From: a virus
Virus genome (UHGV): UHGV-0262902
Length of the DNA: 17,675 nucleotides
Strand: one strand, 5' to 3'
Below are positions 2,566 through 17,377 of the stretch, one piece after another. The position numbers were made by a program, and so were the translations under genes. Each line of letters starts with the position of its first letter. Within the stretch, counting starts at the first letter, position 1. The notes beneath the pieces were generated by a model. The model made no database searches, was not told the DNA's origin, and saw only the letters and a list, made by a program, of their open reading frames with translations.

Positions 2566-2710
2566 CCCGCAGACGAACGGCGATTTAAGTGCCGATATCC
2601 GGCAGCTTGAGAACGCGCTGGCGCGCTGTGCCAGCCAGGTAAAAATGATTAAACACTGTCAGGACGAAAACGATGCTCAAACCCGACAGCCTGCGCAGGG
2701 CGCTGACTGA
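2420..2710 (+). CDS. lysC: LysC, o-spanin lipoprotein (Rz1-like; 96 aa)
   Basis: Alternate frame overlapping the 3' part of lysB; GAGG at 2409-2412 before ATG 2420; product MKTKIFAAGTAMTCLMLCAGCTS has a lipobox-like signal and is Pro-rich. Confidence 0.75.
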   Translation: MKTKIFAAGTAMTCLMLCAGCTSAPPAPTPVIVHNACPKVSLCPMPGSDPQTNGDLSADIRQLENALARCASQVKMIKHCQDENDAQTRQPAQGAD

Positions 2711-3140
2711 TGCCGTCACGGTACTGAAAACTAACCCCGATATGCTGCGGATATTCGTGGATAACGGGAGTATTGCCTCCACACTGGCGACGTCGCTGTC
2801 ATTCGAAAAGCGTTACACGCTCAATGTCATTGTGACCGACTTTACCGGTGATTTTGACCTGCTCATCGTGCCGGTGCTGGCGTGGCTGCGGGAAAATCAG
2901 CCCGACATCATGACCACCGACGAAGGCCAGAAAAAGGGCTTCACGTTTTATGCAGACATCAACAATGACAGCAGCTTTGATATCAGCATCAGCCTGATGC
3001 TGACCGAGCGAACGCTGGTCAGTGAGGTGGACGGCGCACTGCATGTGAAGAATATCCCGGAACCCCCGCCGCCGGAGCCGGTCACCCGCCCGGTGGAGCT
3101 TTATATCAATGGCGAACTGGTGAGCAAGTGGGATGAATGA
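2673..3140 (+). CDS. R: Tail completion protein gpR (155 aa)
   Basis: Length and position match P2 R; start overlaps lysC 3' end, stop overlaps the S start. Confidence 0.85.
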   Translation: MLKPDSLRRALTDAVTVLKTNPDMLRIFVDNGSIASTLATSLSFEKRYTLNVIVTDFTGDFDLLIVPVLAWLRENQPDIMTTDEGQKKGFTFYADINNDSSFDISISLMLTERTLVSEVDGALHVKNIPEPPPPEPVTRPVELYINGELVSKWDE

Positions 3141-3585
3141 GTTTAAGCGTTTTGAAGACCGGCTGACCGGACTGATTGAATCGCTGTCACCGTCAGGGCG
3201 TCGGCGACTGAGTGCCGAACTGGCGAAACGTCTGCGGCAGAGTCAGCAGCGTCGGGTGATGGCTCAGAAAGCCCCGGACGGCACACCCTACGCGCCACGC
3301 CAGCAGCAGAGCGCCAGAAAAAAGACTGGTCGTGTTAAGCGAAAAATGTTTGCGAAACTTATCACCAGTCGTTTTTTGCATATCCGCGCCAGCCCGGAAC
3401 AGGCATCAATGGAGTTTTACGGCGGGAAGTCACCGAAAATCGCCAGTGTGCATCAGTTCGGTCTGTCGGAAGAAAACCGGAAAGACGGTAAGAAAATTGA
3501 TTATCCGGCGCGTCCCCTGCTCGGCTTTACCGGTGAGGATGTGCAGATGATTGAAGAGATTATTCTGGCTCACCTCGACCGTTAG
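3133..3585 (+). CDS. S: Tail completion protein gpS (150 aa)
   Basis: ATG at 3133 overlapping the R stop; length and position match P2 S. Confidence 0.85.
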   Translation: MNEFKRFEDRLTGLIESLSPSGRRRLSAELAKRLRQSQQRRVMAQKAPDGTPYAPRQQQSARKKTGRVKRKMFAKLITSRFLHIRASPEQASMEFYGGKSPKIASVHQFGLSEENRKDGKKIDYPARPLLGFTGEDVQMIEEIILAHLDR

Positions 3586-3651
3586 TTGTGCCATTCCCGA
3601 CACCTCATCGTTACATTGCCGCCGGTATGACCCGGCGGCATCCTTCCCGTT

Positions 3652-4287
3652 ATGAACACTCTCGCAAATATCCAGGAACTCGCGCGCGCACTGCGCAACA
3701 TGATCCGCACCGGCCTTGTCGTCGAAACCAACCTTAAAGCCGGTCGCTGCCGTGTGCAGACCGGCGGCATGTGCACCGACTGGCTTCAGTGGCTGACCTG
3801 TCGTGCCGGGCGTTCGCGCACATGGTGGGCGCCTTCCGTGGGGGAGCAGGTGCTGATTCTGGCCGTGGGCGGTGAACTTGACACGGCGTTTGTTCTGCCG
3901 GGGATTTATTCCGGCGATAACCCCGCGCCGTCTGCGTCGGCGGATGCCCTGCATATCCGTTTCCCTGACGGGGCGGTGATTGAGTATGAACCCGAAACCA
4001 GTGCACTCACGGTAAGCGGAATTAAAACGGCCAGCGTGACGGCTTCTGATTCTGTTACTGCCACGGTGCCGGTGGTCATGGTGAAAGCATCAACCCGCGT
4101 CACTCTGGACACGCCGGAGGTGGTCTGCACAAACAAGCTGATCACCGGCACGCTGGAAGTGCAGAAGGGCGGGACGATGCGCGGCAACATTGAACACACC
4201 GGCGGTGAACTCTCATCAAACGGTAAGGTACTGCATACCCATAAACACCCCGGCGACAGCGGCGGCACAACCGGGGGACCTATATGA
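3652..4287 (+). CDS. V: Baseplate central spike gpV (211 aa)
   Basis: First gene of the baseplate block; length matches P2 gpV; stop overlaps W start. Confidence 0.85.
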   Translation: MNTLANIQELARALRNMIRTGLVVETNLKAGRCRVQTGGMCTDWLQWLTCRAGRSRTWWAPSVGEQVLILAVGGELDTAFVLPGIYSGDNPAPSASADALHIRFPDGAVIEYEPETSALTVSGIKTASVTASDSVTATVPVVMVKASTRVTLDTPEVVCTNKLITGTLEVQKGGTMRGNIEHTGGELSSNGKVLHTHKHPGDSGGTTGGPI

Positions 4288-4631
4288 CAGCGCGTTATCT
4301 CGGAATGAATCGCAGTGATGGCCTGACTGTCACTGACCTTGAGCATATCAGCCAGAGTATCGGCGATATCCTGCGCACACCGGTCGGCTCACGGGTGATG
4401 CGTCGTGATTACGGCTCGTTGCTGGCGTCAATGATTGACCAGCCGCAGACCCCGGCGCTTGAGTTGCAGATTAAGGTCGCCTGTTACATGTCCGTGCTGA
4501 AATGGGAACCCCGCGTCACCCTGTCATCCGTCACCACTGAGCGCAGTTTTGACGGGCGAATGACGGTCACGTTAACCGGTCAGCACAACGACACCGGCCA
4601 GCCACTTTCGTTAACCATCCCTGTGAGTTGA
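4284..4631 (+). CDS. W: Baseplate wedge protein gpW (gp25-like; 115 aa)
   Basis: Length and position match P2 gpW between V and J. Confidence 0.85.
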   Translation: MTARYLGMNRSDGLTVTDLEHISQSIGDILRTPVGSRVMRRDYGSLLASMIDQPQTPALELQIKVACYMSVLKWEPRVTLSSVTTERSFDGRMTVTLTGQHNDTGQPLSLTIPVS

Positions 4632-4635
4632 AACC

Positions 4636-5544
4636 ATGCCGATTATCGACCTGAACCAGCTACCCGCACCGGATGTGGTCGAGGAGCTGGACTTTGAAAC
4701 CATTCTCGCTGAACGCAAGGCGACACTGATTTCCCTTTACCCGGAAGACCAGCAGGAGGCGGTCGCCCGTACCCTGACGCTGGAATCCGAGCCTCTCGTC
4801 AAACTGCTGGAGGAAAATGCTTATCGTGAGCTTATCTGGCGTCAGCGTGTGAATGAGGCCGCACGGGCGGTGATGCTGGCCTGTGCCGCCGGTAATGACC
4901 TTGATGTGATTGGTGCCAATTACAACACCACGCGCCTGATTATCACCCCGGCAGATGATTCGACCCTCCCGCCGACACCGGCAGTGATGGAATCTGATAC
5001 CGATTATCGTCTGCGTATTCAGCAGGCGTTTGAAGGTTTAAGCGTCGCCGGGTCGGTGGGGGCCTATCAGTATCATGGTCGCAGTGCCGACGGGCGTGTC
5101 GCGGATATTTCTGTCACCAGTCCGTCTCCGGCCTGCGTCACCATCTCTGTGCTGTCACGTGAAAATAACGGTGTGGCATCCGAAGACCTGCTGGCCGTGG
5201 TGCGTAACGCCCTTAATGGCGAGGACGTCAGGCCGGTGGCCGACCGCGTGACCGTGCAGTCTGCCGCCATTGTTGAATACCAGATAAACGCCACGCTTTA
5301 CCTTTACCCTGGTCCCGAAAGCGAACCCATCCGCGCTGCTGCCGTGAAAAAACTGGAAGCGTACATCACGGCGCAGCACCGGCTGGGGCGCGACATCCGT
5401 CTGTCTGCCATTTATGCCGCTTTGCATGTGGAAGGCGTGCAGCGTGTCGAGCTGGCCGCACCACTGGCCGACATTGTGCTCAACAGTACGCAGGCGTCTT
5501 TCTGTACCGAATACCGCGTCGTGACCGGAGGCTCGGATGAGTGA
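4636..5544 (+). CDS. J: Baseplate assembly protein gpJ (302 aa)
   Basis: Length and position match P2 gpJ; 3' end overlaps the I start. Confidence 0.85.
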   Translation: MPIIDLNQLPAPDVVEELDFETILAERKATLISLYPEDQQEAVARTLTLESEPLVKLLEENAYRELIWRQRVNEAARAVMLACAAGNDLDVIGANYNTTRLIITPADDSTLPPTPAVMESDTDYRLRIQQAFEGLSVAGSVGAYQYHGRSADGRVADISVTSPSPACVTISVLSRENNGVASEDLLAVVRNALNGEDVRPVADRVTVQSAAIVEYQINATLYLYPGPESEPIRAAAVKKLEAYITAQHRLGRDIRLSAIYAALHVEGVQRVELAAPLADIVLNSTQASFCTEYRVVTGGSDE

Positions 5545-6067
5545 TTCGCGCCTGCTGCCGACCGGCTCATCACCGCTTGAAGTCGCCGCCGCAAAAGCCT
5601 GTGCGGAAATTGAAAAAACGCCGGCCAGTATTCGTGAGCTGTGGAACCCGGACACCTGCCCGGCAAATCTGCTGCCGTGGCTGGCGTGGGCGTTTTCGGT
5701 CGACAGGTGGGATGAAAAGTGGCCGGAAGCGACAAAACGCGCCGTTATCCGCGATGCCTATTTCATCCACTGTCATAAAGGCACTATAGGCGCAATCCGG
5801 CGTGTGGTGGAGCCGCTCGGCTATCTCATCAACGTGACGGAGTGGTGGGAAAACAGTGACCCGCCCGGCACCTTCCGGCTTGATATTGGTGTACTGGAAA
5901 GCGGTATCACAGAGGCAATGTATCAGGAAATGGAACGGCTGATTGCCGATGCCAAACCTGCAAGCCGTCACCTTATTGGTCTGAACATTACCCGGGACAT
6001 TCCCGGCTACCTGTTCGCCGGTGGTGTGGCTTACGACGGCGATGTAATTACGGTTTACCCCGGATAA
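5537..6067 (+). CDS. I: Baseplate protein gpI (176 aa)
   Basis: Length and position match P2 gpI, directly upstream of tail-fibre gene H. Confidence 0.85.
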   Translation: MSDSRLLPTGSSPLEVAAAKACAEIEKTPASIRELWNPDTCPANLLPWLAWAFSVDRWDEKWPEATKRAVIRDAYFIHCHKGTIGAIRRVVEPLGYLINVTEWWENSDPPGTFRLDIGVLESGITEAMYQEMERLIADAKPASRHLIGLNITRDIPGYLFAGGVAYDGDVITVYPG

Positions 6068-6077
6068 GTGAGGAAGA

Positions 6078-8075
6078 ATGAGCACAAAATTCAGAACCGT
6101 TATCACCACTGCCGGTGCAGCAAAGCTGGCAGCGGCAACCGCGCCGGGAGGGCGGAAGGTCAACATTACCACGATGGCCGTCGGGGATGGAGGTGGTAAA
6201 TTGCCTGTCCCGGATGCCGGACAGACCGGGCTTATCCATGAAGTCTGGCGACATGCGCTGAACAAAATCAGCCAGGACAAACGAAACAGTAATTATATTA
6301 TCGCAGAGCTGGTTATTCCGCCGGAGGTGGGCGGTTTCTGGATGCGTGAGCTTGGCCTGTACGATGATGCGGGAACATTAATTGCCGTGGCGAACATGGC
6401 CGAAAGTTATAAGCCAGCTCTTGCCGAAGGCTCAGGGCGTTCGCAGACCTGTCGCATGGTCATCATCGTCAGCAGTGTGGCCTCAGTGGCGCTGACCATT
6501 GACACCACAGCGGTGATGGCGACGCAGGATTACGTTGATGACAAAATTGCAGAGCATGGACAGTCACGACGTCACCCGGACGCCTCGCTGACCGCAAAAG
6601 GTTTTACTCAGTTAAGCAATGCGACCAACAGCACGTCTGAAACACTGGCCGCAACGCCGAAAGCGGTAAAGGCCGCGTATGATCTTGCTAACGGGAAATA
6701 CACTGCGCAGGATGCCACCACAGCGCGAAAAGGCCTTGTCCAGCTCAGTAGCGCCACCAACAGCACGTCTGAAACGCTCGCCGCAACACCAAAAGCGGTA
6801 AAGGCAGCATATGACCTTGCTAATGGGAAATACACTGCACAGGACGCCACCACAGCGCGAAAAGGTCTTGTCCAGCTCAGTAGCGCCACCAACAGCGATT
6901 CTGAAACGCTTGCGGCAACGCCAAAGGCGGTTAAGACAGCGTATGACCTTGCTAACGGAAAATACACTGCACAGGACGCCACCACGGCGCGGAAAGGTCT
7001 TGTTCAGCTCAATAGTGCCATCAACAGCGATTCTGAAACGCTGGCTGCAACACCAAAAGCGGTGAAGTCTGCCTATGACAATGCTGAAAAACGTCTTCAG
7101 AAAGATCAAAATGGCGCGGATATTCCTGATAAAAGATTATTCCTGCGCAATATTGGAGCAACAAATTCAACAACCATGTCTTTTAGTGGTGGTACAGGAT
7201 GGTTCAGGCTGGCAACTGTAACCATGCCACAGGCCAGTTCCGTGGTTTACATAAGTCTGATTGGTGGTGCTGGATATAATGTTAACTCCCCTATGCAGGC
7301 TGGTATATCTGAACTTGTTCTTCGTGCGGGAAATGGAAATCCAAAAGGTCTTACTGGTGCGTTATGGCGACGGACATCGGTTGGATTTACTAATTTTGCA
7401 TGGGTGAATACATCCGGTGATACCTATGATGTTTATGTTGAAATAGGTAATTACGCCACAGGTGTTAATATTCAGTGGGATTATACCAGTAACGCCAGCG
7501 TAACGATTCATACATCACCAACTTATACAGCGAATAAACCAACAGGTCTTACAGATGGAACTGTATATGTAATTTACAGTTCGCACATTAAACCGACTGC
7601 TGCTGATGTTGGGGCGTTGTCATTATCTGGAGGTCAATTGAATGGTGCACTGGGCATCGGAACATCCAGTGTTCTTGGCGGTAACTCAATTGTTTTGGGT
7701 GATAATGACACGGGCTTTAAACAAAATGGTGACGGTAATCTGGATGTTTATGCTAATAACGTTCATGTTATGCGCTTTGTCTCCGGTAGCATTCAAAGTA
7801 ATAAAACCATAAATATTACGGGTCGTGTTAATCCCACAGATTACGGTAACTTTGATTCCCGCTATGTCCGGGATATCCGGCTTGGTGGTGCTGCCACATA
7901 CAAACCTGCGAACAATGGCATGACATGGACACATCAGGCACCGTCCGGGTGTGTATATTCCGGCATTATTATTCAGGATACCGGCTCAAACTCTGCCGAT
8001 AACATTGGTGGCGTATATTACAGACCGGTGCAGAAATACATTAACGGGACATGGTATAACGTGGCACAGGTATAA
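6078..8075 (+). CDS. H: Tail fibre protein gpH (665 aa) with internal tandem repeats and an AT-richer distal domain
   Basis: GGAAG before ATG 6078; conserved-looking N-terminus; four 44-aa repeats in the shaft; the region from about 7100 on is visibly lower in GC, as expected for a swapped receptor-binding module. Confidence 0.85.
   Translation: MSTKFRTVITTAGAAKLAAATAPGGRKVNITTMAVGDGGGKLPVPDAGQTGLIHEVWRHALNKISQDKRNSNYIIAELVIPPEVGGFWMRELGLYDDAGTLIAVANMAESYKPALAEGSGRSQTCRMVIIVSSVASVALTIDTTAVMATQDYVDDKIAEHGQSRRHPDASLTAKGFTQLSNATNSTSETLAATPKAVKAAYDLANGKYTAQDATTARKGLVQLSSATNSTSETLAATPKAVKAAYDLANGKYTAQDATTARKGLVQLSSATNSDSETLAATPKAVKTAYDLANGKYTAQDATTARKGLVQLNSAINSDSETLAATPKAVKSAYDNAEKRLQKDQNGADIPDKRLFLRNIGATNSTTMSFSGGTGWFRLATVTMPQASSVVYISLIGGAGYNVNSPMQAGISELVLRAGNGNPKGLTGALWRRTSVGFTNFAWVNTSGDTYDVYVEIGNYATGVNIQWDYTSNASVTIHTSPTYTANKPTGLTDGTVYVIYSSHIKPTAADVGALSLSGGQLNGALGIGTSSVLGGNSIVLGDNDTGFKQNGDGNLDVYANNVHVMRFVSGSIQSNKTINITGRVNPTDYGNFDSRYVRDIRLGGAATYKPANNGMTWTHQAPSGCVYSGIIIQDTGSNSADNIGGVYYRPVQKYINGTWYNVAQV
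6597..7095 (+). repeat. Four tandem in-frame 132-bp (44-aa) repeats inside H
   Basis: Repeat anchors AAAGG at 6597, 6729, 6861 and 6993, each exactly 132 bp apart; peptide unit approx KGLVQLSSATNSTSETLAATPKAVKAAYDLANGKYTAQDATTAR; the fourth copy degenerates after ...AYDNAEKR. Confidence 0.85.
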
Positions 8076-8078
8076 TTT

Positions 8079-8606
8079 ATGCAGCATTTAAAAAATATTA
8101 CGGTGGGTAATCCAAAAACGGTTGAACAATATCAATTGACAAAGGGCTTTGATGTTGTCTGGTTTTTTACAGAAGATGGTAAGAACTGGTACGAAGAACA
8201 AAAGTATTTTGCTGATGACACGATAAAAATAGCGTACGACAAAGATAATATCATCCGCTATGTGGAAAAGGATGTGACAGCTATCAGACCGGATGGATTA
8301 AGTGTGGTTGAAGTGGCGGATATTACTGCTAACCGACGGGCGGATATTTCAGGGGGCTGGATGTTTAAGGACGGCAAAGTGATTAAACGCATTTATACGG
8401 CAGAGGAATTACAGCAGCAGGCAGAAATTCGGAAAGCCAGACTTCTTGCAGATGCTGAATCCGTGATTTTGCCGCTGGAGCGCGCGGTCAGACTGAACAT
8501 GGCAACAGAGGAGGAGCGCACACGGCTGGAGGCTTGGGAACGCTACAGCGTTCTGGTCAGTCGTGTGGATCCTGCAAATCCTGAATGGCCGGAAATGCCG
8601 CAATAA
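8079..8606 (+). CDS. G: Tail fibre assembly chaperone gpG (175 aa)
   Basis: Immediately downstream of H (4-nt gap); length matches P2 gpG; AT-rich like the distal part of H. Confidence 0.8.
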
Positions 8607-8859
8607 GTTGTATGAACTCTGGTGTGAGCTTACATATCTATGGCACAGAGTAAAGCCTAATCTGACAGTCCGCTCTGTGCCAAAAGCGGGCGTTGATCAC
8701 ATGGGCTATGCTAACCCATTATAACAGTGTAACAGAGCTACCCACGATTACTCCCGGCCTCTAAAGTTTGCTACATAATAAAGAATCATTCCCTTTAATC
8801 TGATCTTAGCGGTATAGTATCTGGTGACCAGTAAGACAATCACCGACACTACAATCATG

Positions 8860-8887
8860 TTGATTTGCATTGTGTTTAGTCTAAAAT
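8860..8887 (+). promoter_or_regulatory. Candidate sigma70 promoter for the cargo operon
   Basis: TTGATT at 8860-8865, 16-nt spacer, TAAAAT at 8882-8887, about 50 bp upstream of the cargo gene start. Hexamer match only; other AT-rich matches exist nearby. Confidence 0.3.
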
Positions 8888-8936
8888 TGTGGTGCGAAAA
8901 GACCAATGAAAGTTATTGATAATAAGGAGGAATCAA

Positions 8937-9722
8937 ATGTCAGGAATAAGATGGTTGGATAAAAAAGATTTAATCCTTAAAGGAATAAATGAAGGCACCT
9001 ACCCAGAATCAGTTTACAAGTTCAGAACTATAGATAAAGCCTGTGATATTCTTCAAAAAAAAGAATTTTACTTTTCATCAGCGGAAAATTTTAATGATCC
9101 ATTTGATTGTATGCTGGATGAGGAAAAAGAATACTCTTTATCAGACTTTACTTGTTGGTTATATTCATATCAGAATGGATTAACCAAGAAGGCAAAGCAG
9201 AACTTAATAGATGTGTATAAAGAAAACAGCCAAGCATTTAATGATCTAGTTAAAAATATAAAAACAAAAGCCGTCAATGCCCATGGCATTTTATCGCTAT
9301 CTAAAACTAATGAAAATGTTCTTTTATGGTCTCATTATGCGGAGAACCATACCGGAGTTGCTATAAAACTCAATATTGCTAAGGATCCAGAGTTCTTTAT
9401 AACCCCCCAAAACATAGTATATATGAAGCAATATATTCCATTAAATTATCTTAGAGACCCTAAAAAATCAATACTCGACACACTCTCTACGAAATCAATG
9501 GATTGGAATTATGAAGAGGAGATTAGAGTTTATAAAAGTAATATTGGAGCCTATAAGATTAAGCCAGAGGCAATAACTGATGTTTTTTTTGGTTTGAAAA
9601 CGCTGGAACAGGATATTGCAAAAATCAAAAATATATGTAGTGAAAATGGTCTAAGCCATGTGAAGTTTCATCGGGCTGAAAAAAAATATGGAGAATTTGC
9701 GCTACGTTTTAATCCTATTTGA
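8937..9722 (+). CDS. Cargo protein A: DUF2971-like protein of unknown function (261 aa)
   Basis: Consensus SD AAGGAGG at 8924-8930, 6-nt spacer, ATG 8937. AT-rich codon usage. Motifs YKFR (27-30), FYFSSAENFNDPFDC (44-58) and LLWSHYAENHTGVAIK (129-144) resemble the DUF2971 signature as I remember it; no characterised function is known to me. Confidence 0.7.
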   Translation: MSGIRWLDKKDLILKGINEGTYPESVYKFRTIDKACDILQKKEFYFSSAENFNDPFDCMLDEEKEYSLSDFTCWLYSYQNGLTKKAKQNLIDVYKENSQAFNDLVKNIKTKAVNAHGILSLSKTNENVLLWSHYAENHTGVAIKLNIAKDPEFFITPQNIVYMKQYIPLNYLRDPKKSILDTLSTKSMDWNYEEEIRVYKSNIGAYKIKPEAITDVFFGLKTLEQDIAKIKNICSENGLSHVKFHRAEKKYGEFALRFNPI

Positions 9723-9808
9723 CTTTTCTATTTAGTAGTTAAATGATAGTGCATTACGGGCCAATTAAATTTAATTCTATGGTTGTGTAGACAATAAAAG
9801 GTAACTAG

Positions 9809-10294
9809 ATGAATCAAGATGAGTTAAAAAATTTTTGTGTTGATGTGCGTGAAGCACTTGAGAAGATGACCAAAAAAGATCATTCACGGCTGTCATCCTT
9901 TAGAAATTCGAACTTTCCAGTGGGATGCTGCGGAGATACATCGAAACTGCTTGCTTATTTGCTTTATCAGCAATTCGGGATAGTCTCTGAAGTACTCGCA
10001 GGATATTACTATGAATCTGATCATAAGTCCCCCGCCAGCGGTCTTTCAAACGGTAATTCACATGCTTGGCTTGTCGTGGATGGAATGATTGTTGATTTGA
10101 CTGCAGATCAGTTCAACGACCGGGGATATAACAATCTTCCCGTCATGATTACATCAGACACTAGGTTTCATGACCTCTTTGCCAATCGTAATGCCTCGTT
10201 TCAACCTTCTCAAGGTAATGAAATTATTCTACCTGATATTCTAAAAATGACAGCATCACATGTGCAGCAAAGGCTTAAAGAGCGAGGTTGGTAA
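9809..10294 (+). CDS. Cargo protein B: small protein with transglutaminase/papain-like Cys-His-Asp motif arrangement (161 aa)
   Basis: ATG 9809 after a weak AAGG; AT-rich. Motifs G-C-C-G-D (Cys40/41), S-H-A-W-LVVDG (His85) and VDLTADQ (Asp96/Asp100) appear in the order and spacing typical of transglutaminase-like cysteine peptidase cores. Assignment is motif-based only. Confidence 0.6.
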   Translation: MNQDELKNFCVDVREALEKMTKKDHSRLSSFRNSNFPVGCCGDTSKLLAYLLYQQFGIVSEVLAGYYYESDHKSPASGLSNGNSHAWLVVDGMIVDLTADQFNDRGYNNLPVMITSDTRFHDLFANRNASFQPSQGNEIILPDILKMTASHVQQRLKERGW

Positions 10295-10613
10295 TGCGGG
10301 TGCAGCAGAATCTAAAGCTGATACTTAAAATTATATAGGAAGAGCATAAACTTATCCTAAATCTGGCTGTAATAGATCCTTTCATATATCGGCCAGATTA
10401 ATATGAAGTAATCCAAATTAGTGTCTGAAAATATAATCAGCTCCATAACAATAGATTTATCGCTTAAAAATAACGTCAACATGAGGGTAGAAAACATCCC
10501 TAAAGATAAGTCTGGTCTAACCTTTGCTCCTCGCTCAAAGCAGACTGTCAGAATTGATAGCGTTTGGGCTATGTAAATTGTCAGTCGGAAAATGAGTGAG
10601 TACAAATCAGGAC

Positions 10614-10641
10614 AGGCGGGCGAATTGCCCGCCTTTTCTTT
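10614..10641 (+). terminator. Rho-independent terminator closing the cargo region, upstream of FI
   Basis: Stem GGCGGGC (10615-10621), loop GAATT, stem GCCCGCC (10627-10633), then TTTTCTTT. The reverse strand lacks a T-run, so it is oriented for the + strand. Confidence 0.7.
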
Positions 10642-10737
10642 ATCTGTTGTTTCATCCACTGACCAGTCAGGTCAAATAGCGTCTCATGCTCTGCACAACA
10701 GAAAATAGTTGCACCCATTAACCACGGAGTTAAACGG

Positions 10738-11928
10738 ATGAGTGACTATCATCACGGCGTGCAGGTTCTGGAAATTAACGACGGCACCCGTGTCATTTCC
10801 ACCGTATCCACTGCCATTGTCGGCATGGTCTGCACGGCCAGCGATGCGGATGCGGAAACCTTCCCCCTCAATAAACCTGTGCTGATTACCAATGTGCAGA
10901 GCGCAATTGCAAAGGCCGGTAAAAAAGGCACGCTGGCGGCATCGTTGCAGGCCATCGCCGACCAGTCAAAACCGGTCACCGTTGTCGTGCGTGTGGAAGA
11001 CGGCACCGGCGACGATGAAGAAACGAAACTCGCGCAGACCGTGTCCAATATCATCGGCACCACCGACGAAAACGGCCAGTACACCGGACTGAAAGCCCTG
11101 CTGGCGGCGGAGTCGGTAACCGGTGTTAAACCGCGTATTCTCGGAGTGCCGGGACTGGATACCAAAGAGGTGGCTGTTGCACTGGCATCAGTCTGTCAGA
11201 AGCTGCGCGCTTTCGGGTATATCAGCGCATGGGGCTGTAAGACCATTTCCGAGGTGAAAGCCTACCGCCAGAATTTCAGCCAGCGTGAGCTGATGGTCAT
11301 CTGGCCGGATTTCCTCGCATGGGATACGGTCACCAGTACCACCGCCACCGCGTATGCCACCGCCCGTGCGCTGGGTCTGCGTGCCAAAATCGACCAGGAG
11401 CAGGGCTGGCATAAAACGCTGTCCAACGTCGGGGTGAACGGTGTTACCGGCATCAGCGCATCTGTATTCTGGGATTTGCAGGAGTCCGGCACCGATGCTG
11501 ACCTGCTTAACGAGTCAGGCGTCACAACACTGATTCGCCGTGACGGTTTCCGCTTCTGGGGTAACCGTACCTGCTCTGATGACCCGCTGTTCCTCTTTGA
11601 AAACTACACCCGCACCGCACAGGTACTGGCCGACACGATGGCGGAGGCGCACATGTGGGCGGTGGACAAGCCCATCACCGCAACGCTGATTCGTGACATC
11701 GTTGACGGCATCAATGCCAAATTCCGTGAGCTGAAAACAAACGGCTATATCGTGGATGCGACCTGCTGGTTTAGCGAAGAATCCAACGATGCGGAAACCC
11801 TCAAGGCCGGAAAACTGTATATCGACTACGACTATACCCCGGTGCCTCCTCTTGAAAACCTGACCCTGCGCCAGCGTATCACCGATAAATACCTGGCAAA
11901 TCTGGTCACCTCGGTTAACAGCAATTAA
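10738..11928 (+). CDS. FI: Tail sheath protein gpFI (396 aa)
   Basis: GGAG at 10726-10729 before ATG 10738; length matches P2 FI; followed by the tail tube gene. Confidence 0.9.
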   Translation: MSDYHHGVQVLEINDGTRVISTVSTAIVGMVCTASDADAETFPLNKPVLITNVQSAIAKAGKKGTLAASLQAIADQSKPVTVVVRVEDGTGDDEETKLAQTVSNIIGTTDENGQYTGLKALLAAESVTGVKPRILGVPGLDTKEVAVALASVCQKLRAFGYISAWGCKTISEVKAYRQNFSQRELMVIWPDFLAWDTVTSTTATAYATARALGLRAKIDQEQGWHKTLSNVGVNGVTGISASVFWDLQESGTDADLLNESGVTTLIRRDGFRFWGNRTCSDDPLFLFENYTRTAQVLADTMAEAHMWAVDKPITATLIRDIVDGINAKFRELKTNGYIVDATCWFSEESNDAETLKAGKLYIDYDYTPVPPLENLTLRQRITDKYLANLVTSVNSN

Positions 11929-11940
11929 GGAGCCTGACCG

Positions 11941-12459
11941 ATGGCAATGCCGCGCAAACTCAAGTTAATGAACGTCTTTCTGAACGGCTACAGCTATCAG
12001 GGCGTTGCAAAGTCCGTCACGCTGCCAAAACTGACCCGTAAGCTCGAAAACTATCGCGGTGCGGGGATGAACGGCAGCGCACCAGTAGACCTCGGCCTTG
12101 ATGACGATGCGCTGTCAATGGAGTGGTCGCTCGGGGGCTTCCCGGATTCGGTTATCTGGGAGCTTTACGCCGCAACCGGCGTGGATGCCGTGCCGATTCG
12201 TTTTGCAGGCTCTTATCAGCGTGACGATACCGGCGAAACGGTGGCCGTCGAAGTGGTCATGCGTGGCCGTCAGAAAGAAATCGACACCGGTGAGGGTAAA
12301 CAGGGAGAAGACACCGAGTCGAAAATCTCCGTGGTCTGCACCTATTTCCGGCTGACGATGGACGGTAAGGAGCTGGTCGAAATCGACACCATCAACATGA
12401 TTGAGAAGGTGAACGGCGTCGACCGGCTGGAGCAACACCGCCGCAATATCGGCCTGTGA
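11941..12459 (+). CDS. FII: Tail tube protein gpFII (172 aa)
   Basis: Length and position match P2 FII directly after the sheath gene. Confidence 0.9.
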   Translation: MAMPRKLKLMNVFLNGYSYQGVAKSVTLPKLTRKLENYRGAGMNGSAPVDLGLDDDALSMEWSLGGFPDSVIWELYAATGVDAVPIRFAGSYQRDDTGETVAVEVVMRGRQKEIDTGEGKQGEDTESKISVVCTYFRLTMDGKELVEIDTINMIEKVNGVDRLEQHRRNIGL

Positions 12460-12515
12460 TTTTCATCCGGTCAGCCTGGCTGACCGGTTAACCCTGATTC
12501 AGAAGTGAGAAAACC

Positions 12516-12791
12516 ATGAACAAAGAAAATGTGATTACCCTGGACAATCCGGTCAAGCGTGGTGAGCAGGTTATCGAACAGGTCACGCTGATGAAACCCA
12601 ATGCCGGGACGCTGCGCGGTGTCAGTCTGGCTGCGGTCGCAAACTCCGAAGTCGATGCACTGATTAAAGTGCTGCCGCGCATGACGGCACCGATGCTGAC
12701 TGAGCAGGAGGTCGCCGCGCTGGAGCTGCCTGACCTTGTGGCGCTGGCCGGTAAGGTGGTCGGTTTTTTGTCGCCGAACTCGGTGCAGTGA
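12516..12791 (+). CDS. E: Tail assembly chaperone gpE (91 aa)
   Basis: Small ORF just upstream of the tape-measure gene, with a slippery T-run near its 3' end; length matches P2 E. Confidence 0.85.
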   Translation: MNKENVITLDNPVKRGEQVIEQVTLMKPNAGTLRGVSLAAVANSEVDALIKVLPRMTAPMLTEQEVAALELPDLVALAGKVVGFLSPNSVQ

Positions 12792-12943
12792 CGTTTCCGA
12801 AAAATCTCTCGGTCGATGACCTGATGGCGGATGTGGCAGTGATATTTCACTGGCCGCCATCAGAACTGTATCCCATGAGCCTGACCGAACTCATCACATG
12901 GCGCGAAAAGGCGCTCCGGCGAAGCGGAAACACGAATGAGTAA
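12516..12943 (+). CDS. E+E': E+E' frameshift-extended tail assembly chaperone (142 aa, -1 frameshift at 12764-12770)
   Basis: Heptamer T_TTT_TTG at 12764-12770 in the E frame; the -1 frame is open from 12770 to TAA at 12941-12943 (57 codons, ending ...REKALRRSGNTNE), overlapping the T start by 8 nt. 85 + 57 = 142 aa, the size I recall for P2 E+E'. Confidence 0.75.
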
Positions 12944-15383
12944 CAATGTAAAATTACAGGTATTACTCAGGGCTGTTGACCAGGCATCCCGCCCGTTTAA
13001 ATCCATCCGCACAGCGAGCAAATCGCTGTCGGGGGATATCCGGGAAACACAAAAATCACTGCGCGAGCTGAACGGTCAGGCATCCCGTATTGAGGGATTT
13101 CGCAAGACCAGTGCACAGCTCGCCGTGACTGGTCATGCACTTGAAAAGGCACGGCAGGAAGCCGAAGCCCTTGCCACACAGTTTAAAAACACCGAACGTC
13201 CGACCCGTGCTCAGGCGAAAGTGCTGGAATCCGCAAAGCGTGCGGCGGAGGACTTACAGGCAAAATATAACCGCCTGACGGATTCCGTTAAACGCCAGCA
13301 GCGGGAACTGGCCACTGTGGGAATTAATACCCGCAATCTTGCACATGATGAGCAGGGACTGAAAAACCGTATCAGTGAAACCACCGCACAGCTTAACCGT
13401 CAGCGTGACGCGCTGGCGCGTGTCAGTGCGCAACAGGCAAAACTTAACGCAGTCAAACAGCGTTATCAAGCCGGAAAGGAACTGGCCGGAAATATGGCCT
13501 CAGTGGGCGCTGCCGGTGTGGGGATTGCTGCTGCGGGAACGATGGCCGGTGTTAAGCTGCTGATGCCCGGTTATGAGTTTGCGCAGAAAAACTCAGAATT
13601 GCAGGCCGTGCTAGGTGTGGCAAAAGACTCCGCCGAAATGGCTGCACTCCGCAAGCAGGCGCGCCAGCTCGGCGACAATACCGCAGCCTCGGCAGATGAT
13701 GCAGCCGGTGCACAGATTATCATTGCGAAAGCGGGTGGAGATGCTGCGGCTATTCAGGCAGCAACGCCGGTCACACTGAATATGGCACTGGCAAACCAGC
13801 GGTCGATGGAAGAAAACGCGCAACTGTTGCTGGGGACTAAGGCATCCTTTCAACTGTCAAATGATGATGTCAGCCATGTGGGCGACGTGTTGTCGGCAAC
13901 GATGAATAAGTCGGCGGCTGATTTTCAGGGACTCAGTGATGCACTGACTTACCTCGGCCCGGTTGCGAGGACGGCAGATGTAAGTCTTGAGCAGGCAGCG
14001 GCCATGACCGGTGTGCTGCATGACAATAACATCAGGGGGTCAATGGCGGGTACGGGTAGCAGTGCCGTTGTCACCCGATTACAGGCACCGACTGGAAAAG
14101 CATGGGATGCACTCAAAGAGCTTGGCGTTAAAACCTCGGACAAAAAGGGAAATATGCGTCCGTTGTTCACCATTCTGAAAGAGATTCAGGCCAGCTTTGA
14201 TAAGCATAAGCTGGGAACGTCTCAGAAGGGGGAATACCTTAAAACCATTTTTGGTGAGGAAGCCCTGAAATCAGCGAACGTTTTACTGGCAGCGGCAGCA
14301 AGCGGAAAACTGGATACGCTGACCGCCACGCTGAAAGCCTCGGACGGTAAAACGGAAGAGCTGGTTAAAATCATGCAGGATAACCTCGGCGGTGACTTTA
14401 AGGAGTTTCAGTCCGCTTATGAGGCGGTGGGGACTGACCTGTTTGACCAGCAGGAAGGCGCACTGCGTAAGCTCACTCAGACGGCCACAAAGTATGTGTT
14501 AAAACTCGACGGCTGGATCCAGAAAAACAAATCACTGGCGTCAACCATCGGTCTCATTGTCGGTGGCGCGCTGGCGCTTATTGGCATCATCGGTGCCATT
14601 GGTCTTGTAGCCTGGCCGGTTATCACCGGCATCAATGCCATTATCGCGGCAGCAGGCGCAATGGGGGCAATCTTCACGACGGTTGGCAGTGCTGTTATGA
14701 CGGCCATCGGGGCGATTAGCTGGCCGGTTGTGGCCGTGGTGGCCGCCATTGTCGCCGGGGCGTTGCTTATCCATAAATACTGGGAGCCTGTCAGCGCATT
14801 CTTTGGCGGTGTGGTTGAAGGGCTGAAAGCGGCATTTGCGCCGGTGGGGGAACTGTTCACGCCACTGAAGCCGGTGTTTGACTGGCTGGGCGAAAAGTTA
14901 CAGGCCGCGTGGCAGTGGTTTAAAAACCTGATTGCCCCGGTCAAAGCCACCCAGGACACCCTGAACCGTTGCCGTGACACGGGCGTCATGTTCGGGCAGG
15001 CACTGGCTGACGCGCTGATGCTGCCGCTTAATGCGTTCAACAAACTGCGCAGCGGTATAGACTGGGTACTGGAAAAACTCGGGGTTATCAACAAAGAGTC
15101 AGACACACTTGACCAGACCGCCGCCAGAACTCATGCCGCCACGTATGGCACCGGTGGTTATATTCCGGCGACCAGCTCTTATGCAGCCTATCAGGCTTAT
15201 CAGCCGGTCACGGCACCGGCTGGCCGCTCTTATGTGGACCAGAGTAAAAACGAATATCACATCAGTCTGACGGGCGGTACTGCGCCTGGGACTCAGCTCG
15301 ACCGCCAGTTACAGGATGCGCTCGAAAAATACGAGCGGGATAAACGTGCGCGCGCCCGTGCCAGCATGATGCATGACGGTTAA
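12936..15383 (+). CDS. T: Tail tape measure protein gpT (815 aa)
   Basis: Long protein with a charged helical N-terminal half and Gly/Ala-rich hydrophobic segments near the C-terminus (e.g. IGLIVGGALALIGIIGAIGLVAWPVITG); length matches P2 T. Confidence 0.9.
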   Translation: MSNNVKLQVLLRAVDQASRPFKSIRTASKSLSGDIRETQKSLRELNGQASRIEGFRKTSAQLAVTGHALEKARQEAEALATQFKNTERPTRAQAKVLESAKRAAEDLQAKYNRLTDSVKRQQRELATVGINTRNLAHDEQGLKNRISETTAQLNRQRDALARVSAQQAKLNAVKQRYQAGKELAGNMASVGAAGVGIAAAGTMAGVKLLMPGYEFAQKNSELQAVLGVAKDSAEMAALRKQARQLGDNTAASADDAAGAQIIIAKAGGDAAAIQAATPVTLNMALANQRSMEENAQLLLGTKASFQLSNDDVSHVGDVLSATMNKSAADFQGLSDALTYLGPVARTADVSLEQAAAMTGVLHDNNIRGSMAGTGSSAVVTRLQAPTGKAWDALKELGVKTSDKKGNMRPLFTILKEIQASFDKHKLGTSQKGEYLKTIFGEEALKSANVLLAAAASGKLDTLTATLKASDGKTEELVKIMQDNLGGDFKEFQSAYEAVGTDLFDQQEGALRKLTQTATKYVLKLDGWIQKNKSLASTIGLIVGGALALIGIIGAIGLVAWPVITGINAIIAAAGAMGAIFTTVGSAVMTAIGAISWPVVAVVAAIVAGALLIHKYWEPVSAFFGGVVEGLKAAFAPVGELFTPLKPVFDWLGEKLQAAWQWFKNLIAPVKATQDTLNRCRDTGVMFGQALADALMLPLNAFNKLRSGIDWVLEKLGVINKESDTLDQTAARTHAATYGTGGYIPATSSYAAYQAYQPVTAPAGRSYVDQSKNEYHISLTGGTAPGTQLDRQLQDALEKYERDKRARARASMMHDG

Positions 15384-15397
15384 GGAGGTGACGAAAA

Positions 15398-15877
15398 ATG
15401 ATGCTCGCGTTAGGTATGTTTGTTTTTATGCGCCAGACGCTGCCACACCAGACCATGCAGCGTGAATCAGATTATCGCTGGCCGTCAAATTCCCGTATCG
15501 GTAAACGGGAGGCCTACCAGTTTCTCGGTGTGGGTGAGGAAAACATCACGCTTGCCGGTGTGCTTTATCCCGAACTGACCGGCGGCAAGCTGACGATGAC
15601 CACGCTCAGGCTGATGGCAGAGGAAGGCCGGGCGTGGCCGTTGCTGGATGGCACCGGCATGATTTACGGCATGTATGTCATCAGCAGGGTGAGTGAAACA
15701 GGGAGTATTTTCTTTGCAGACGGCACACCCCGGAAAATTGATTTTACGCTGTCTCTCACCCGCGTTGATGAATCACTGGTCGCGCTTTATGGCGATATCG
15801 GTAAACAGGCGGAGTCGCTCATCGGTAAGACCGGCAGTATGGCGACCAGATTCACGGGTATGACGGGGGCAGGATAA
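15398..15877 (+). CDS. U: Tail protein gpU (159 aa)
   Basis: GGAGG at 15384-15388 before ATG 15398; length and position match P2 U. Confidence 0.85.
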   Translation: MMLALGMFVFMRQTLPHQTMQRESDYRWPSNSRIGKREAYQFLGVGEENITLAGVLYPELTGGKLTMTTLRLMAEEGRAWPLLDGTGMIYGMYVISRVSETGSIFFADGTPRKIDFTLSLTRVDESLVALYGDIGKQAESLIGKTGSMATRFTGMTGAG

Positions 15878-17040
15878 TGCTGGATGCGCTGACATTTGAT
15901 GCAGGCAGTACGCTGACGCCGGATTACATGCTGATGCTCGACAGCAGGGATATTACCGGCAATATCAGCGACCGTCTGATGAGCATGACTCTGACGGATA
16001 ACCGGGGCTTTGAAGCTGACCAGCTTGATATTGAACTGAACGATGCCGACGGGCAGGTCGGGCTGCCGGTTCGTGGCGCTGTCCTGACGGTGTATATCGG
16101 CTGGAAAGGTTTTGCCCTGGTATGCAAAGGGAAATTTACCGTTGATGAGGTTGAACACCGGGGCGCACCGGATGTGGTCACCATCCGCGCCCGGAGTGCA
16201 GATTTTCGCGGGACGCTCAATTCCCGCCGTGAAGGCTCCTGGCATGACACCACGCTCGGTGCGATTGTTGAGGCGATAGCCTCCCGTAACAGGCTGGAAG
16301 CCAGTGTCGCTCCGTCACTGGCCGGAATTAAAATCCCGCATATCGACCAGTCGCAGGAGTCTGATGCAAAATTCCTGACCCGCCTTGCTGAACGCAACGG
16401 CGGTGAAGTGTCGGTAAAAATGGGAAAATTGTTGTTTCTCAAAGCGGGGCAGGGGGTGACGGCCAGCGGTAAAAAAATCCCGCAGGTTACCATCACCCGC
16501 AGCGACGGCGACCGTCATCATTTTGCGATTGCTGACCGTGGAGCCTACACCGGCGTAACGGCAAAGTGGTTACACACCAAAGACCCGAAGCCACAAAAGC
16601 AGAAGGTAAAACTGAAACGCAAAAAGAAAGAGAAACACCTGCGCGCACTGGAGCACCCGAAAGCGAAACCGGTCACGCAGAAGAAAGCGCCAAAAGTACC
16701 GGAAGCGCGCGAAGGTGAATACATGGCCGGTGAGGCTGACAATGTTTTTGCCCTGACCACGGTATATGCCACGAAAGCGCAGGCCATGCGCGCCGCTCAG
16801 GCGAAGTGGGATAAACTGCAACGGGGCGTTGCGGAGTTCTCCATCAGCCTGGCTACCGGTCGGGCAGATATTTACACGGAAACACCGGTTAAGGTGTCAG
16901 GCTTTAAGCGCGTCATAGACGAGCAGGACTGGACAATCACTAAGGTGACACATTTTCTGAATAATAGCGGCTTCACGACGTCCTTAGAGCTTGAGGTCAG
17001 GCTTTCTGATGTGGAGTACGAAACAGAAGATGATGAGTGA
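15877..17040 (+). CDS. D: Tail protein gpD (late control D family; 387 aa)
   Basis: Start overlaps the U stop (TAATG); length matches P2 D; contains a Lys-rich low-complexity segment. Confidence 0.85.
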   Translation: MLDALTFDAGSTLTPDYMLMLDSRDITGNISDRLMSMTLTDNRGFEADQLDIELNDADGQVGLPVRGAVLTVYIGWKGFALVCKGKFTVDEVEHRGAPDVVTIRARSADFRGTLNSRREGSWHDTTLGAIVEAIASRNRLEASVAPSLAGIKIPHIDQSQESDAKFLTRLAERNGGEVSVKMGKLLFLKAGQGVTASGKKIPQVTITRSDGDRHHFAIADRGAYTGVTAKWLHTKDPKPQKQKVKLKRKKKEKHLRALEHPKAKPVTQKKAPKVPEAREGEYMAGEADNVFALTTVYATKAQAMRAAQAKWDKLQRGVAEFSISLATGRADIYTETPVKVSGFKRVIDEQDWTITKVTHFLNNSGFTTSLELEVRLSDVEYETEDDE

Positions 17041-17121
17041 TGTTTTTATTTTATCCGTTTGTTTTATAAGGATAAATTAACTAAAATGGCACCATCAACA
17101 AAACCGGAAGAGGTGCTCGCG

Positions 17122-17340: not shown

Positions 17341-17351
17341 TTACATACAGG

Positions 17352-17377
17352 AAGCCCCTCAGTCGAGGGGCTTTTTT
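17352..17377 (+). terminator. Rho-independent terminator after ogr
   Basis: Stem AAGCCCCTC (17352-17360), loop AGTC, stem GAGGGGCTT (17365-17373), followed by a six-T run. Confidence 0.75.

What the first reader, a model, noticed from the sequence alone, without database searches (positions are those of the whole stretch)
8607..10737. AT-rich two-gene cargo cassette in the G-FI hotspot: candidate anti-phage exclusion system
Between the tail-fibre chaperone gene G and the sheath gene FI lies a ~2.1 kb block that is visibly AT-rich against the GC-rich phage backbone. It has its own signals (sigma70-like promoter near 8860-8887, consensus SD AAGGAGG, intrinsic terminator at 10614-10641) and encodes two proteins (261 aa and 161 aa) unrelated to virion assembly. 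This is the position of the P2 Z/fun lysogenic-conversion locus (T5 exclusion) and a known variable hotspot for defence cargo in P2-like prophages. A DUF2971-like protein paired with a Cys-His-Asp peptidase-fold protein is not a defence system I can name, so this may be uncharacterised. I cannot tell without a search whether these ORFs are simply P2 Z/fun.
Basis: partly seen in the sequence, partly recalled or inferred. Interest (0 to 1): 0.85.

Follow-up and report, generated by a model that had tools for sequence, protein, structure and literature searches.

The report
Prophage cargo: ADP-ribosyltransferase-like defence candidate
An AT-rich, horizontally acquired cassette in the known Z/fun cargo slot of a P2-like E. 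coli prophage carries a DarT/Tpt1-like ADP-ribosyltransferase-fold gene from a catalogued candidate anti-phage family, plus a small cysteine-enzyme gene that is not its obligate partner; this is an ordinary-to-interesting find, not a new kind of system.

The parts
8579..8691 (.). Left inverted repeat of the P2 Z region (backbone side). It contains the 'L-core' GTCCGCTCTGTGCCAAAAG at 8668-8686, where homology to other-cargo P2 phages ends and homology to non-P2 copies of this cassette begins.
   Evidence: Mapped from the AJ512685 feature 'left inverted repeat' through blastn. Inverted repeat I1, 8661-8687 / 10526-10552. Boundary alignments.
8687..8936 (+). Cassette leader (non-coding). It holds a promoter-like site at 8860-8887 (weak, not conserved), a better-conserved TATAGT at 8813-8818, and the Shine-Dalgarno AAGGAGG at 8925-8931.
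   Evidence: The leader is 72-95% identical in L077, L082 and L087, about the same as four-fold degenerate sites.
8937..9722 (+). Gene A: a 261-aa DUF2971 / PADLOC PDC-S31 protein with an ADP-ribosyltransferase fold. Invariant residues: N53-D54-P55, W131-S132-H133-Y134-A135, K186, W190, E193, E195, R197.
9723..9808 (+). A-B spacer of 86 nt with no terminator-like hairpin. The same spacing (78-87 nt) occurs in all homologous cassettes, so co-transcription is likely.
9809..10294 (+). Gene B: a 161-aa papain-like (transglutaminase / deamidase-like) Cys-His-Asp protein. Invariant residues: P37, C40, C41, H85, W87, D96, T98, Q101, F102.
10295..10526 (+). Cassette trailer (non-coding, GC 0.34) with a conserved 10-bp hairpin at 10360-10399. 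There is no conserved ORF. Its start (10284-10409) is also found downstream of DRT9 in a B+DRT9 cassette (L095).
   Evidence: (I17). The fold z-score is -1.73 and there is no true covariation, so an RNA function is not supported.
10522..10612 (.). Right inverted repeat of the P2 Z region. It contains the 'R-core' CTCCTCGCTCAAAGCAGAC at 10527-10545, where cassette homology ends and P2 backbone homology resumes.
   Evidence: AJ512685 feature 'right inverted repeat', mapped. Alignments.
10614..10644 (+). Intrinsic terminator (9-bp stem, 7 G-C pairs, T-run) that belongs to the conserved P2 backbone. In this context it probably ends the A-B transcript ahead of the FI late promoter region.
   Evidence: Nearly identical in P2 and P2-EC67 (one substitution each), which carry unrelated cargo.

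Best explanation
The block is a horizontally acquired cargo cassette (about 8688-10526) in the Z/fun hotspot of a P2-like E. coli prophage. It carries two accessory genes that are probably co-transcribed but are separable in function.

Gene A is a member of the DUF2971 / PADLOC PDC-S31 family, with an ADP-ribosyltransferase fold closest to the nucleic-acid-directed enzymes Tpt1/KptA and DarT. It retains a Tyr-containing motif (W-S-H-Y-A) and an E-x-E motif. By analogy with the validated single-gene DUF2971 system Aristaios, I infer that it is a latent, infection-triggered effector made by the lysogen. On superinfection by another phage it would use NAD+ to modify a nucleic acid or a component of the transcription machinery, and so abort the infection.

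Gene B is a small papain-like Cys-His-Asp enzyme of the deamidase / transglutaminase / peptidase type. It is a promiscuous resident of prophage cargo slots and defence islands, not an obligate partner of A. Its own role is unknown: it could be an independent defence or accessory function, or an optional modulator.

The cassette moves as one unit between unrelated mobile elements by recombination at short inverted-repeat cores at its ends.

Shown here: the anatomy, family membership, folds, conserved residues, boundaries and phyletic pattern. Inferred: anti-phage activity, the trigger, the target and the chemistry.
For: - Composition and boundaries.
- The locus is a known P2 hotspot.
- A matches all five PDC-S31 models, the best at E 2e-46 over 23-259 of 261 residues, and matches DUF2971 above the Pfam cut-off.
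- Invariant WSHYA and ExE residues across 59 homologues down to 19% identity. These agree with the published DUF2971 motif description (PMC12522546).
- Aristaios is a DUF2971, ART-fold, single-gene, Abi-like system that blocks phage transcription.
- A relatives occur alone at a Providencia prophage end, on an Aliarcobacter element, inside a Pantoea ICE, and as a single integron-type cassette in Vibrio.
- B relatives: 0 of 73 species-level loci have an adjacent DUF2971 gene, and no other recurrent neighbour was found.
- B at 69-71% identity lies next to DRT9 (E 6e-215) or McrBC instead of A.
- A and B differ in GC content (0.32 against 0.41).
- Both genes are under purifying but relaxed selection.
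- The cassette is conserved with identical ends in four mobile-element backbones.
Against: - No experiment shows that PDC-S31 members protect against phage; a full-text search for 'PDC-S31' found no paper.
- I could not obtain the Aristaios sequence, so its relationship to A is known only at the Pfam-domain level.
- The Pfam DUF2971 score is marginal (25 against 22 bits).
- Catalytic-residue assignment rests on motif position and was not checked by structural superposition. Motif I is not conserved.
- A and B are retained together at 71-93% identity in four contexts with constant spacing and no terminator between them. This could reflect functional coupling in this clade rather than mere co-mobility.
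- The wider B family is only modestly associated with defence genes.
Confidence: 0.55

Rival explanations
1. A and B form a true two-component system in this clade. A is the ART-fold toxin or effector. B is its antitoxin, regulator or activator, for example a cysteine enzyme that removes or prevents the modification, or one that processes A on infection.
For: The pair is conserved in order, orientation and spacing (78-87 nt) in four unrelated backbones: P2-like, a Klebsiella lambdoid prophage, a Serratia GPA/integrase island and another phage. Both proteins diverge in parallel (A 71-87%, B 74-93%) and both are under purifying selection. No terminator lies between them. All 12 E. coli complete genomes with the cargo carry both genes. 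Nucleic-acid ARTs such as DarT usually need a neutralising partner (established knowledge of DarTG). One paper notes a DUF2971 operon variant that includes a papain-fold protein.
Against: The co-transfer is explained by the whole cassette, with leader and trailer, moving as one unit between fixed end-cores. A at 60% identity lacks B. B at 69-71% identity lacks A and sits by DRT9 or McrBC. Of 73 B loci, none has a DUF2971 neighbour. In Vibrio the two families are separate attC-bounded cassettes. Aristaios works and is tolerated alone on a high-copy plasmid. B is not a macrodomain or an ARH-type hydrolase. A and B differ by 9 GC points.
Confidence: 0.22
2. The cargo is not anti-phage defence. 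It would serve another lysogenic-conversion or phage-beneficial role, for example host reprogramming or counter-defence by an ART, in the manner of T4 Alt/ModA/ModB (recalled, not tested), and a deamidase-like effector acting on host or competitor proteins.
For: B's nearest solved structures are virulence-type deamidases and effectors: SseI, PMT-C3, SpvD and Cif. About 18% of DUF2971 proteins are predicted secreted effectors (PMC12522546). Most immediate neighbours of the wider B family are metabolic or miscellaneous genes. No experimental defence data exist for PDC-S31.
Against: Neither protein shows a secretion-related domain in the family scans run here. The location is a slot where P2 carries an exclusion gene and where defence systems are enriched. 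PADLOC lists the family as a defence candidate. The one tested DUF2971 protein is anti-phage. Close B homologues sit beside DRT9, McrBC and PDC-S31.
Confidence: 0.15
3. The cassette is inert hitch-hiking DNA with decaying genes.
For: It is rare (12 of 5,426 complete E. coli genomes). One metagenome assembly has a 1-nt frameshift that splits A, and one genome has an altered A C-terminus. The host prophages are themselves IS-damaged.
Against: Both ORFs are intact here and in all 12 complete genomes. dN/dS is below 1 over dS of 0.2-1.0. Catalytic-type residues are invariant across distant homologues. Both predicted folds are confident.
Confidence: 0.04

Closest known systems
PADLOC candidate system PDC-S31 (single-gene phage defence candidate, PADLOC-DB v2.0.0)
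   Same: Gene A matches all five PDC-S31 profiles, the best (PDLC04990) at E 2e-46 over essentially the full length of both protein and profile.
   Different: PDC-S31 is defined as one gene, whereas here a second gene (B, no PADLOC model) is co-transcribed. No experimental validation of PDC-S31 was found.
Aristaios (Lactococcus plasmid pUCCL641_199; 316 aa; Grafakou et al. 2024, PMC11381338)
   Same: It has a DUF2971 domain covering most of the protein and a predicted ADP-ribosyltransferase fold. It is carried on a mobile element. It is a single-gene Abi-like system that interferes with phage transcription.
   Different: It comes from a different phylum and replicon and is 55 aa longer. It has no B-like neighbour reported.
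DarT of DarTG toxin-antitoxin defence systems
   Different: There is no DarT Pfam or PADLOC hit. Identity is only 8-14%. There are large helical inserts. No DarG-type macrodomain antitoxin is present; the neighbour is a papain-like protein.
P2 Z/fun lysogenic-conversion gene, and the Z-region cargo of other P2-like phages (for example P2-EC67 ORF1)
   Same: The same slot between G and FI, the same flanking inverted repeats and backbone terminator, and an AT-rich gene with its own expression signals.
   Different: There is no sequence similarity to Z/fun. P2-EC67 ORF1 is an Mrr-like nuclease-domain protein. This cargo has two genes.
Papain-like deamidases / transglutaminase-like proteins (SseI, PMT-C3, protein-glutaminase, Atu2299/DUF2026, YunG)
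   Same: B shares the fold and the Cys (helix N-terminus) - His - Asp arrangement.
   Different: It falls below the curated cut-offs of all Pfam families (YunG 24 against 27 bits; Transglut_core 13.5 against 23). It is a minimal 161-aa stand-alone protein, and its substrate is unknown.

Membership tests
PADLOC PDC-S31 | Significant full-length match to the PDC-S31 profile HMMs | tested here: met
   PDLC04990 E 2e-46, protein residues 23-259 of 261, profile positions 6-256 of 259. Four further PDC-S31 models also hit.
PADLOC PDC-S31 | Acts as a single-gene unit | tested here: inconclusive
   A relatives occur alone, but in this clade A is always followed by B.
PADLOC PDC-S31 | Demonstrated anti-phage activity | not testable with these tools
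   No paper in the library mentions PDC-S31.
Pfam DUF2971 (PF11185) | Score at or above the gathering threshold (22 bits) | tested here: met
   25 bits, E 4.8e-5, covering residues 130-198 only. Homologues carry precomputed PF11185 hits. RefSeq names it 'DUF2971 domain-containing protein'.
ADP-ribosyltransferase superfamily | ART beta-sandwich fold | tested here: met
ADP-ribosyltransferase superfamily | Catalytic motifs (motif I H/R; motif II Y or S-T-S; motif III E or E-x-E) | tested here: inconclusive
   Y134 (in WSHYA) and E193-x-E195 are invariant in 59 sequences, in line with PMC12522546. The motif I residue is not conserved. Positions were not verified by superposition.
ADP-ribosyltransferase superfamily | NAD+-dependent transferase activity | not testable with these tools
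   This needs biochemistry.
Aristaios | DUF2971 / ART-fold single protein | tested here: met
   for A; for Aristaios.
Aristaios | Direct sequence homology to pUCCL641_199 | not tested
A tblastn search of plasmids listed no Lactococcus among the top organisms.
DarTG | DarT family toxin (Pfam/PADLOC DarT profile) | tested here: not met
   No DarT profile hit. The similarity is at fold level only.
DarTG | Adjacent DarG macrodomain antitoxin | tested here: not met
   The neighbour B is papain-like and has no Macro domain.
P2 Z/fun | Located between G and FI within the Z-region inverted repeats | tested here: met
P2 Z/fun | Protein homologous to P2 Z/fun | tested here: not met
   BLASTP E 7.6 (A) and 6.5 (B) against the P2 299-aa Z-region protein.
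Transglutaminase-like / papain-like cysteine enzymes (B) | Cys-His-Asp triad on the papain-like core | tested here: met
Transglutaminase-like / papain-like cysteine enzymes (B) | Pfam Transglut_core or YunG at the gathering threshold | tested here: not met
   13.5 against 23 bits, and 24 against 27 bits.
Two-gene toxin-antitoxin / paired defence system | Obligate co-occurrence of the two families | tested here: not met
   0 of 73 B loci have an adjacent A. B occurs alone beside DRT9 or McrBC. A occurs alone.
Integron gene cassette (attC-bounded) | Boundary repeats homologous to attC/VCR sites | tested here: not met
   Local alignment of both boundaries to four Vibrio attC copies gives z of -1.4 to 1.8 against shuffles.

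The most novel reading that the evidence does not exclude
Gene B marks an undescribed class of small papain-like Cys-His-Asp enzymes that act in phage defence. It would work either as a stand-alone system or as a swappable accessory module that is combined with different effectors: PDC-S31 here, DRT9 in a Klebsiella aerogenes element that shares the same trailer, and McrBC in two other elements. The short inverted-repeat 'L-core/R-core' ends would be shared recombination handles that let such cassettes shuttle between P2-like, lambdoid and other enterobacterial mobile elements.
Probability: 0.2. Interest if true: 0.65.

Novelty: new member of a known kind. Interest (0 to 1): 0.35.

Why it matters
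The cassette adds a tail-region (Z/fun) example to the catalogue of P2 hotspot cargo. It would also put an E. coli, genetically tractable representative of the DUF2971 / PDC-S31 ART-fold family on the bench. Only one relative, the lactococcal Aristaios, has been shown to block phage, and its target chemistry is unknown. If A protects E. coli, the standard coliphage panel and escape mutants could reveal the trigger and the target of a DarT/Tpt1-like enzyme that lacks a DarG partner. The secondary leads are cheap to test and bear on how defence cargo is mixed and moved between unrelated prophages. These leads are a small cysteine enzyme that recurs beside different defence genes, and cassette ends shared across phage families.

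Tried and rejected
1. Identity with P2 Z/fun or P2-EC67 ORF1: no similarity.
2. Obligate A-B pairing: rejected by neighbourhood analysis of 73 species-level B loci plus 12 contig look-ups.
3. Another recurrent partner for B: none found by clustering 1,362 neighbouring ORFs.
4. The A-like and B-like neighbours on the Vibrio plasmid as independent support for pairing: rejected. They are separate cassettes, each bounded by attC/VCR repeats.
5. The cassette ends as attC-like sites: I noticed a resemblance to VCR by eye, but alignment scores are within the shuffle range.
6. The trailer or leader as a conserved ncRNA or small ORF. Their identity equals that of four-fold degenerate sites. There is no conserved reading frame. 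RNAalifold shows no real covariation, and the fold z-score is -1.73. Rfam gave only sub-threshold hits.
7. Strong positive selection on A, suggested by 99% four-fold-site identity against 87% amino-acid identity to L087: Nei-Gojobori gives dN/dS 0.81, not above 1.
8. Sequence-level relatives with solved structures: none.
9. NCBIfam: no hit.
10. Deposited phage genomes: none carries the cassette; only the flanks match.
11. Literature on PDC-S31, YunG, DUF2026 and Atu2299: nothing usable.
12. The Rousset 2022 tables list a different DUF2971 protein in the other (gpA-gpQ) P2 hotspot, not this one.
13. Supplements of the 2026 P2/P4 survey are not held.
Full report
**Setting.** The window is the late region of a P2-like E. 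coli prophage: gene L through D and ogr. It is 100% identical over 142-17151 to E. coli GPEC1042, except for an IS in that strain. Gene G (8079-8606, tail-fibre assembly) and FI (10738-11928, sheath) flank the finding.

**Observation.** The block is strongly AT-rich. GC is 0.353 for 8688-10526 against 0.568 for the backbone, and no equal-sized window elsewhere falls below 0.455. It holds two + strand ORFs:
- A, 8937-9722, 261 aa, with AAGGAGG six bases upstream of the ATG.
- B, 9809-10294, 161 aa.

Both are genuine genes. Against three homologous cassettes and one A-only homologue, dN/dS is 0.25-0.81 for A and 0.48-0.76 for B, at dS of 0.04-1.05. The values below 1 fit functional genes, and the high range fits fast-evolving ones.

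**Boundaries and signals.**
- Homology to P2 and to P2-EC67, which carry unrelated cargo in the same slot, stops at about 8686-8695 and resumes at about 10517-10531. The cargo is therefore about 1.84 kb, not 2.13 kb.
- These points coincide with the 'left' and 'right inverted repeat' features annotated in the GenBank record AJ512685, and with inverted repeat 8661-8687 / 10526-10552.
- The terminator at 10614-10634 lies outside the cargo and is nearly identical in P2 and P2-EC67 (one substitution each within the hairpin). It is a backbone feature.
- The promoter-like site at 8860-8887 is weak. It scores 9 of 12, in a region with 12 such sites against 7.0 +/- 3.1 expected. Its -10 hexamer loses the critical final T in all three homologous cassettes, whereas TATAGT at 8813-8818 is better conserved. 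The true promoter is unresolved.
- No terminator-like hairpin separates A from B, so they are probably one transcript.

**Gene A.**
- It matches the PADLOC candidate family PDC-S31 (best model E 2e-46, full length), Pfam DUF2971 just above threshold (25 against 22 bits) and phrog_1762. NCBIfam gave nothing, and RefSeq calls it a DUF2971 protein.
- An AlphaFold2 model built from 59 homologues is confident (pLDDT 93, pTM 0.88).
- Invariant residues across homologues down to 19% identity include N53-D54-P55, W131-S132-H133-Y134-A135 and E193-x-E195-x-R197.
- This agrees with a published bioinformatic description of DUF2971 as an ART family with a conserved Tyr and an ExE motif, a poorly conserved motif I and large helical inserts, similar to DarT and AbiGi (PMC12522546).
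- I did not verify the residue positions by superposition.
- The one experimentally tested DUF2971 protein I found is Aristaios. It is a 316-aa single-gene Abi-like system from a Lactococcus plasmid with an ART fold, and it interferes with phage transcription (PMC11381338 and PMC13064643).

**Gene B.**
- It has no PADLOC or NCBIfam hit and only sub-threshold Pfam hits, to YunG and Transglut_core. It does match phrog_26734 end to end.
- C40-C41 sit at the N-terminus of helix 41-56, H85 on the following strand, and D96 on the next strand. These are invariant in 89 sequences, and D100 is conserved in at least 90% of them.
- An exhaustive profile search finds about 3,587 clusters at 50% identity (1,978 at E <= 1e-10). 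Almost all are stand-alone proteins of about 150 aa.

**Are A and B a pair?**

Evidence for pairing:
- The A-B arrangement, with 78-87 nt spacing, recurs in a Serratia island next to an integrase and GPA replication genes (L077), a Klebsiella lambdoid prophage (L082) and another phage-like contig (L087).
- A is 71-87% and B 74-93% identical to the window copies in these loci.
- All 12 E. coli complete genomes with the cargo have both genes.

Evidence against pairing:
- In those three loci the whole unit is conserved, including the 250-nt leader and 230-nt trailer (81-95% nucleotide identity from about 8676 to 10545). Co-transfer of A and B therefore follows from cassette mobility alone.
- None of 73 species-representative loci with a B-like gene has an adjacent DUF2971 gene, and no other recurrent neighbour exists.
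- B at 71% identity sits alone upstream of a DRT9 reverse transcriptase (PADLOC E 6e-215) in a Klebsiella aerogenes integrative element. B at 69% and 59% identity sits beside McrBC-type systems. B at 48% identity lies in a Citrobacter lambdoid prophage cargo slot.
- In the DRT9 locus the sequence that follows B in the window (10284-10409) reappears after the RT, so the order there is B, then DRT9, then the same trailer. In one McrBC locus, B follows an R-core-like site.
- A at 60% identity is alone at a Providencia prophage end. More distant A relatives are alone on an Aliarcobacter element and inside a Pantoea ICE.
- On a Vibrio plasmid an A-like and a B-like gene are neighbours, but each lies in its own attC/VCR-bounded cassette of an integron-type array. 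This shows that each family moves and presumably works as a single gene.
- A and B also differ by 9 GC points.

I conclude that the pair is a cassette-level association of two separable modules. Clade-specific functional coupling is not excluded, and I put it at about 0.2.

**Is B defence-related?** Close homologues (59% identity or more) were found in eight contexts, all in mobile elements or next to defence genes: PDC-S31 four times, DRT9 once, McrBC twice and a prophage slot once. Across the wider family, the 123 immediate neighbours in the 73 species-level loci are heterogeneous. Most are metabolic or miscellaneous. A minority are strong defence hits: AbiA, Drt8, a CBASS cyclase, HEC-07, bSEFIR, MADS, TIR, PLD and RTs. 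That suggests modest enrichment, but I had no proper control.

**Cassette ends.**
- Homology between the window and the non-P2 copies begins at GTCCGCTCTGTGCCAAAAG (8668-8686) and ends at CTCCTCGCTCAAAGCAGAC (10527-10545).
- These two cores are imperfect inverted repeats of each other. They are exactly where P2 phages with other cargo diverge from the window.
- In L082 and L087 an R-core-like site is followed 37 nt later by an L-core-like site, as expected at a junction between neighbouring cassettes.
- The hits with 2-3 mismatches are unlikely by chance (my estimate is about 1e-4 to 2e-3 per locus). The hits with 4 mismatches elsewhere are at the chance level.
- The ends resembled Vibrio attC repeats by eye, but the similarity did not exceed shuffled controls.

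**What is known about the locus.**
- P2's Z/fun slot is a documented site of foreign genes flanked by inverted repeats (AJ512685).
- A 2026 survey cites the Z/fun locus as a known defence site in P2 (introduction) and reports a defence hotspot within the P2 tail genes, downstream of GpL, holding 16% of P2 systems (PMC13586616).
- Rousset et al. 2022 analysed only the gpA-gpQ hotspot. Their tables list a different DUF2971 protein there.
- Neither A nor B resembles Z/fun.
- No deposited phage genome carries this cassette.
- It occurs in 12 of 5,426 complete E. coli genomes, while 1,027 genomes carry the P2 flanks.

**Mechanism (inferred).** The lysogen expresses A, and probably B, from the cassette leader. 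A stays latent until a superinfecting phage supplies a trigger. It then uses NAD+ to modify a nucleic acid or a component of the transcription machinery and aborts the infection, as proposed for Aristaios and shown for DarT. B acts independently or modulates the system. None of these steps has been demonstrated.

**Verdict.** This is a new member of a known kind, a PDC-S31 / DUF2971 ART-fold defence candidate in a known P2 hotspot. There are two modest open leads: the role of B and the shared cassette ends.

Noticed in passing
window 1-141: The first 141 bases are the reverse complement of the left end of an ISEc12 (IS21-family) element. In strain GPEC1042 the same IS is inserted at window position about 10780-10784, inside the start of FI. 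In this window an IS copy abuts the M-L intergenic region, so the prophage is IS-disrupted or truncated upstream of gene L.
   Followed up: partly
window 8668-8686 and 10527-10545; L082 4686/4723 and 6785; L087 6592/6629: 19-nt 'L-core' and 'R-core' sequences, imperfect inverted repeats of each other, bound this cassette in P2-like, lambdoid and other elements. They also bound unrelated cargo in P2 and P2-EC67. R-core-like sites followed 37 nt later by L-core-like sites look like junctions between neighbouring cassettes. These may be shared recombination handles for cargo exchange. They are not significantly similar to Vibrio attC sites.
   Followed up: partly
window 10360-10399: A 10-bp hairpin (AATCTGGCTG...CGGCCAGATT) in the non-coding trailer is conserved in all four cassette copies, and the trailer segment containing it (10284-10409) recurs after DRT9 in L095. 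It has no T-run, no covariation and no significant folding energy, so its function is unknown.
   Followed up: partly
L095 4001-6421 (Klebsiella aerogenes integrative element): A B homologue (71% identity) is followed by a DRT9 reverse transcriptase, and then by the same trailer sequence that follows B in the window. This is a modular 'B + different defence gene' cassette.
   Followed up: partly
L100 5000-15500 (Vibrio sp. HDW18 plasmid NZ_CP049914.1): An integron-type array with VCR/attC repeats between every ORF. It contains two DUF2971 cassettes, one B-like cassette, and a GNAT/DUF1778 toxin-antitoxin pair.
   Followed up: yes
window 6800-8600 (3' half of tail-fibre gene H, and G): GC drops to 0.41-0.49 across the receptor-binding part of H and across G, against 0.57 for the backbone. 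H also contains an internal repeat (6621-6947 against 6753-7079, 88% identity; Phage_fiber_2 repeats). This fits horizontal exchange of the tail-fibre tip module.
   Followed up: no
L091 3128-3914; L089 3130-3927: In one metagenome assembly, gene A carries a 1-nt indel that splits it into 172 + 99 aa while B is intact. One E. coli genome has a 265-aa variant with an altered C-terminus. These could be real decay of A or sequencing errors.
   Followed up: partly
window 8937-9722 against L087 5001-5786: Between these two A alleles, 34 of 261 residues differ while four-fold degenerate sites are 99% identical (Nei-Gojobori dN/dS 0.81). Many changes cluster in the helical insert at residues 65-120. 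This hints at diversifying selection on a surface region, but it is not significant on its own.
   Followed up: partly
L002 210-1118 (P2-EC67 Z-region ORF1): The cargo gene at the same slot in P2-EC67 has an Mrr-like restriction-endonuclease domain (Pfam Mrr_cat, E 4e-5). This is another defence-type gene in the Z/fun hotspot.
   Followed up: no
window 16800-17675: GC falls to about 0.45-0.46 at the right end of the window, around and beyond ogr. I did not examine this region.
   Followed up: no
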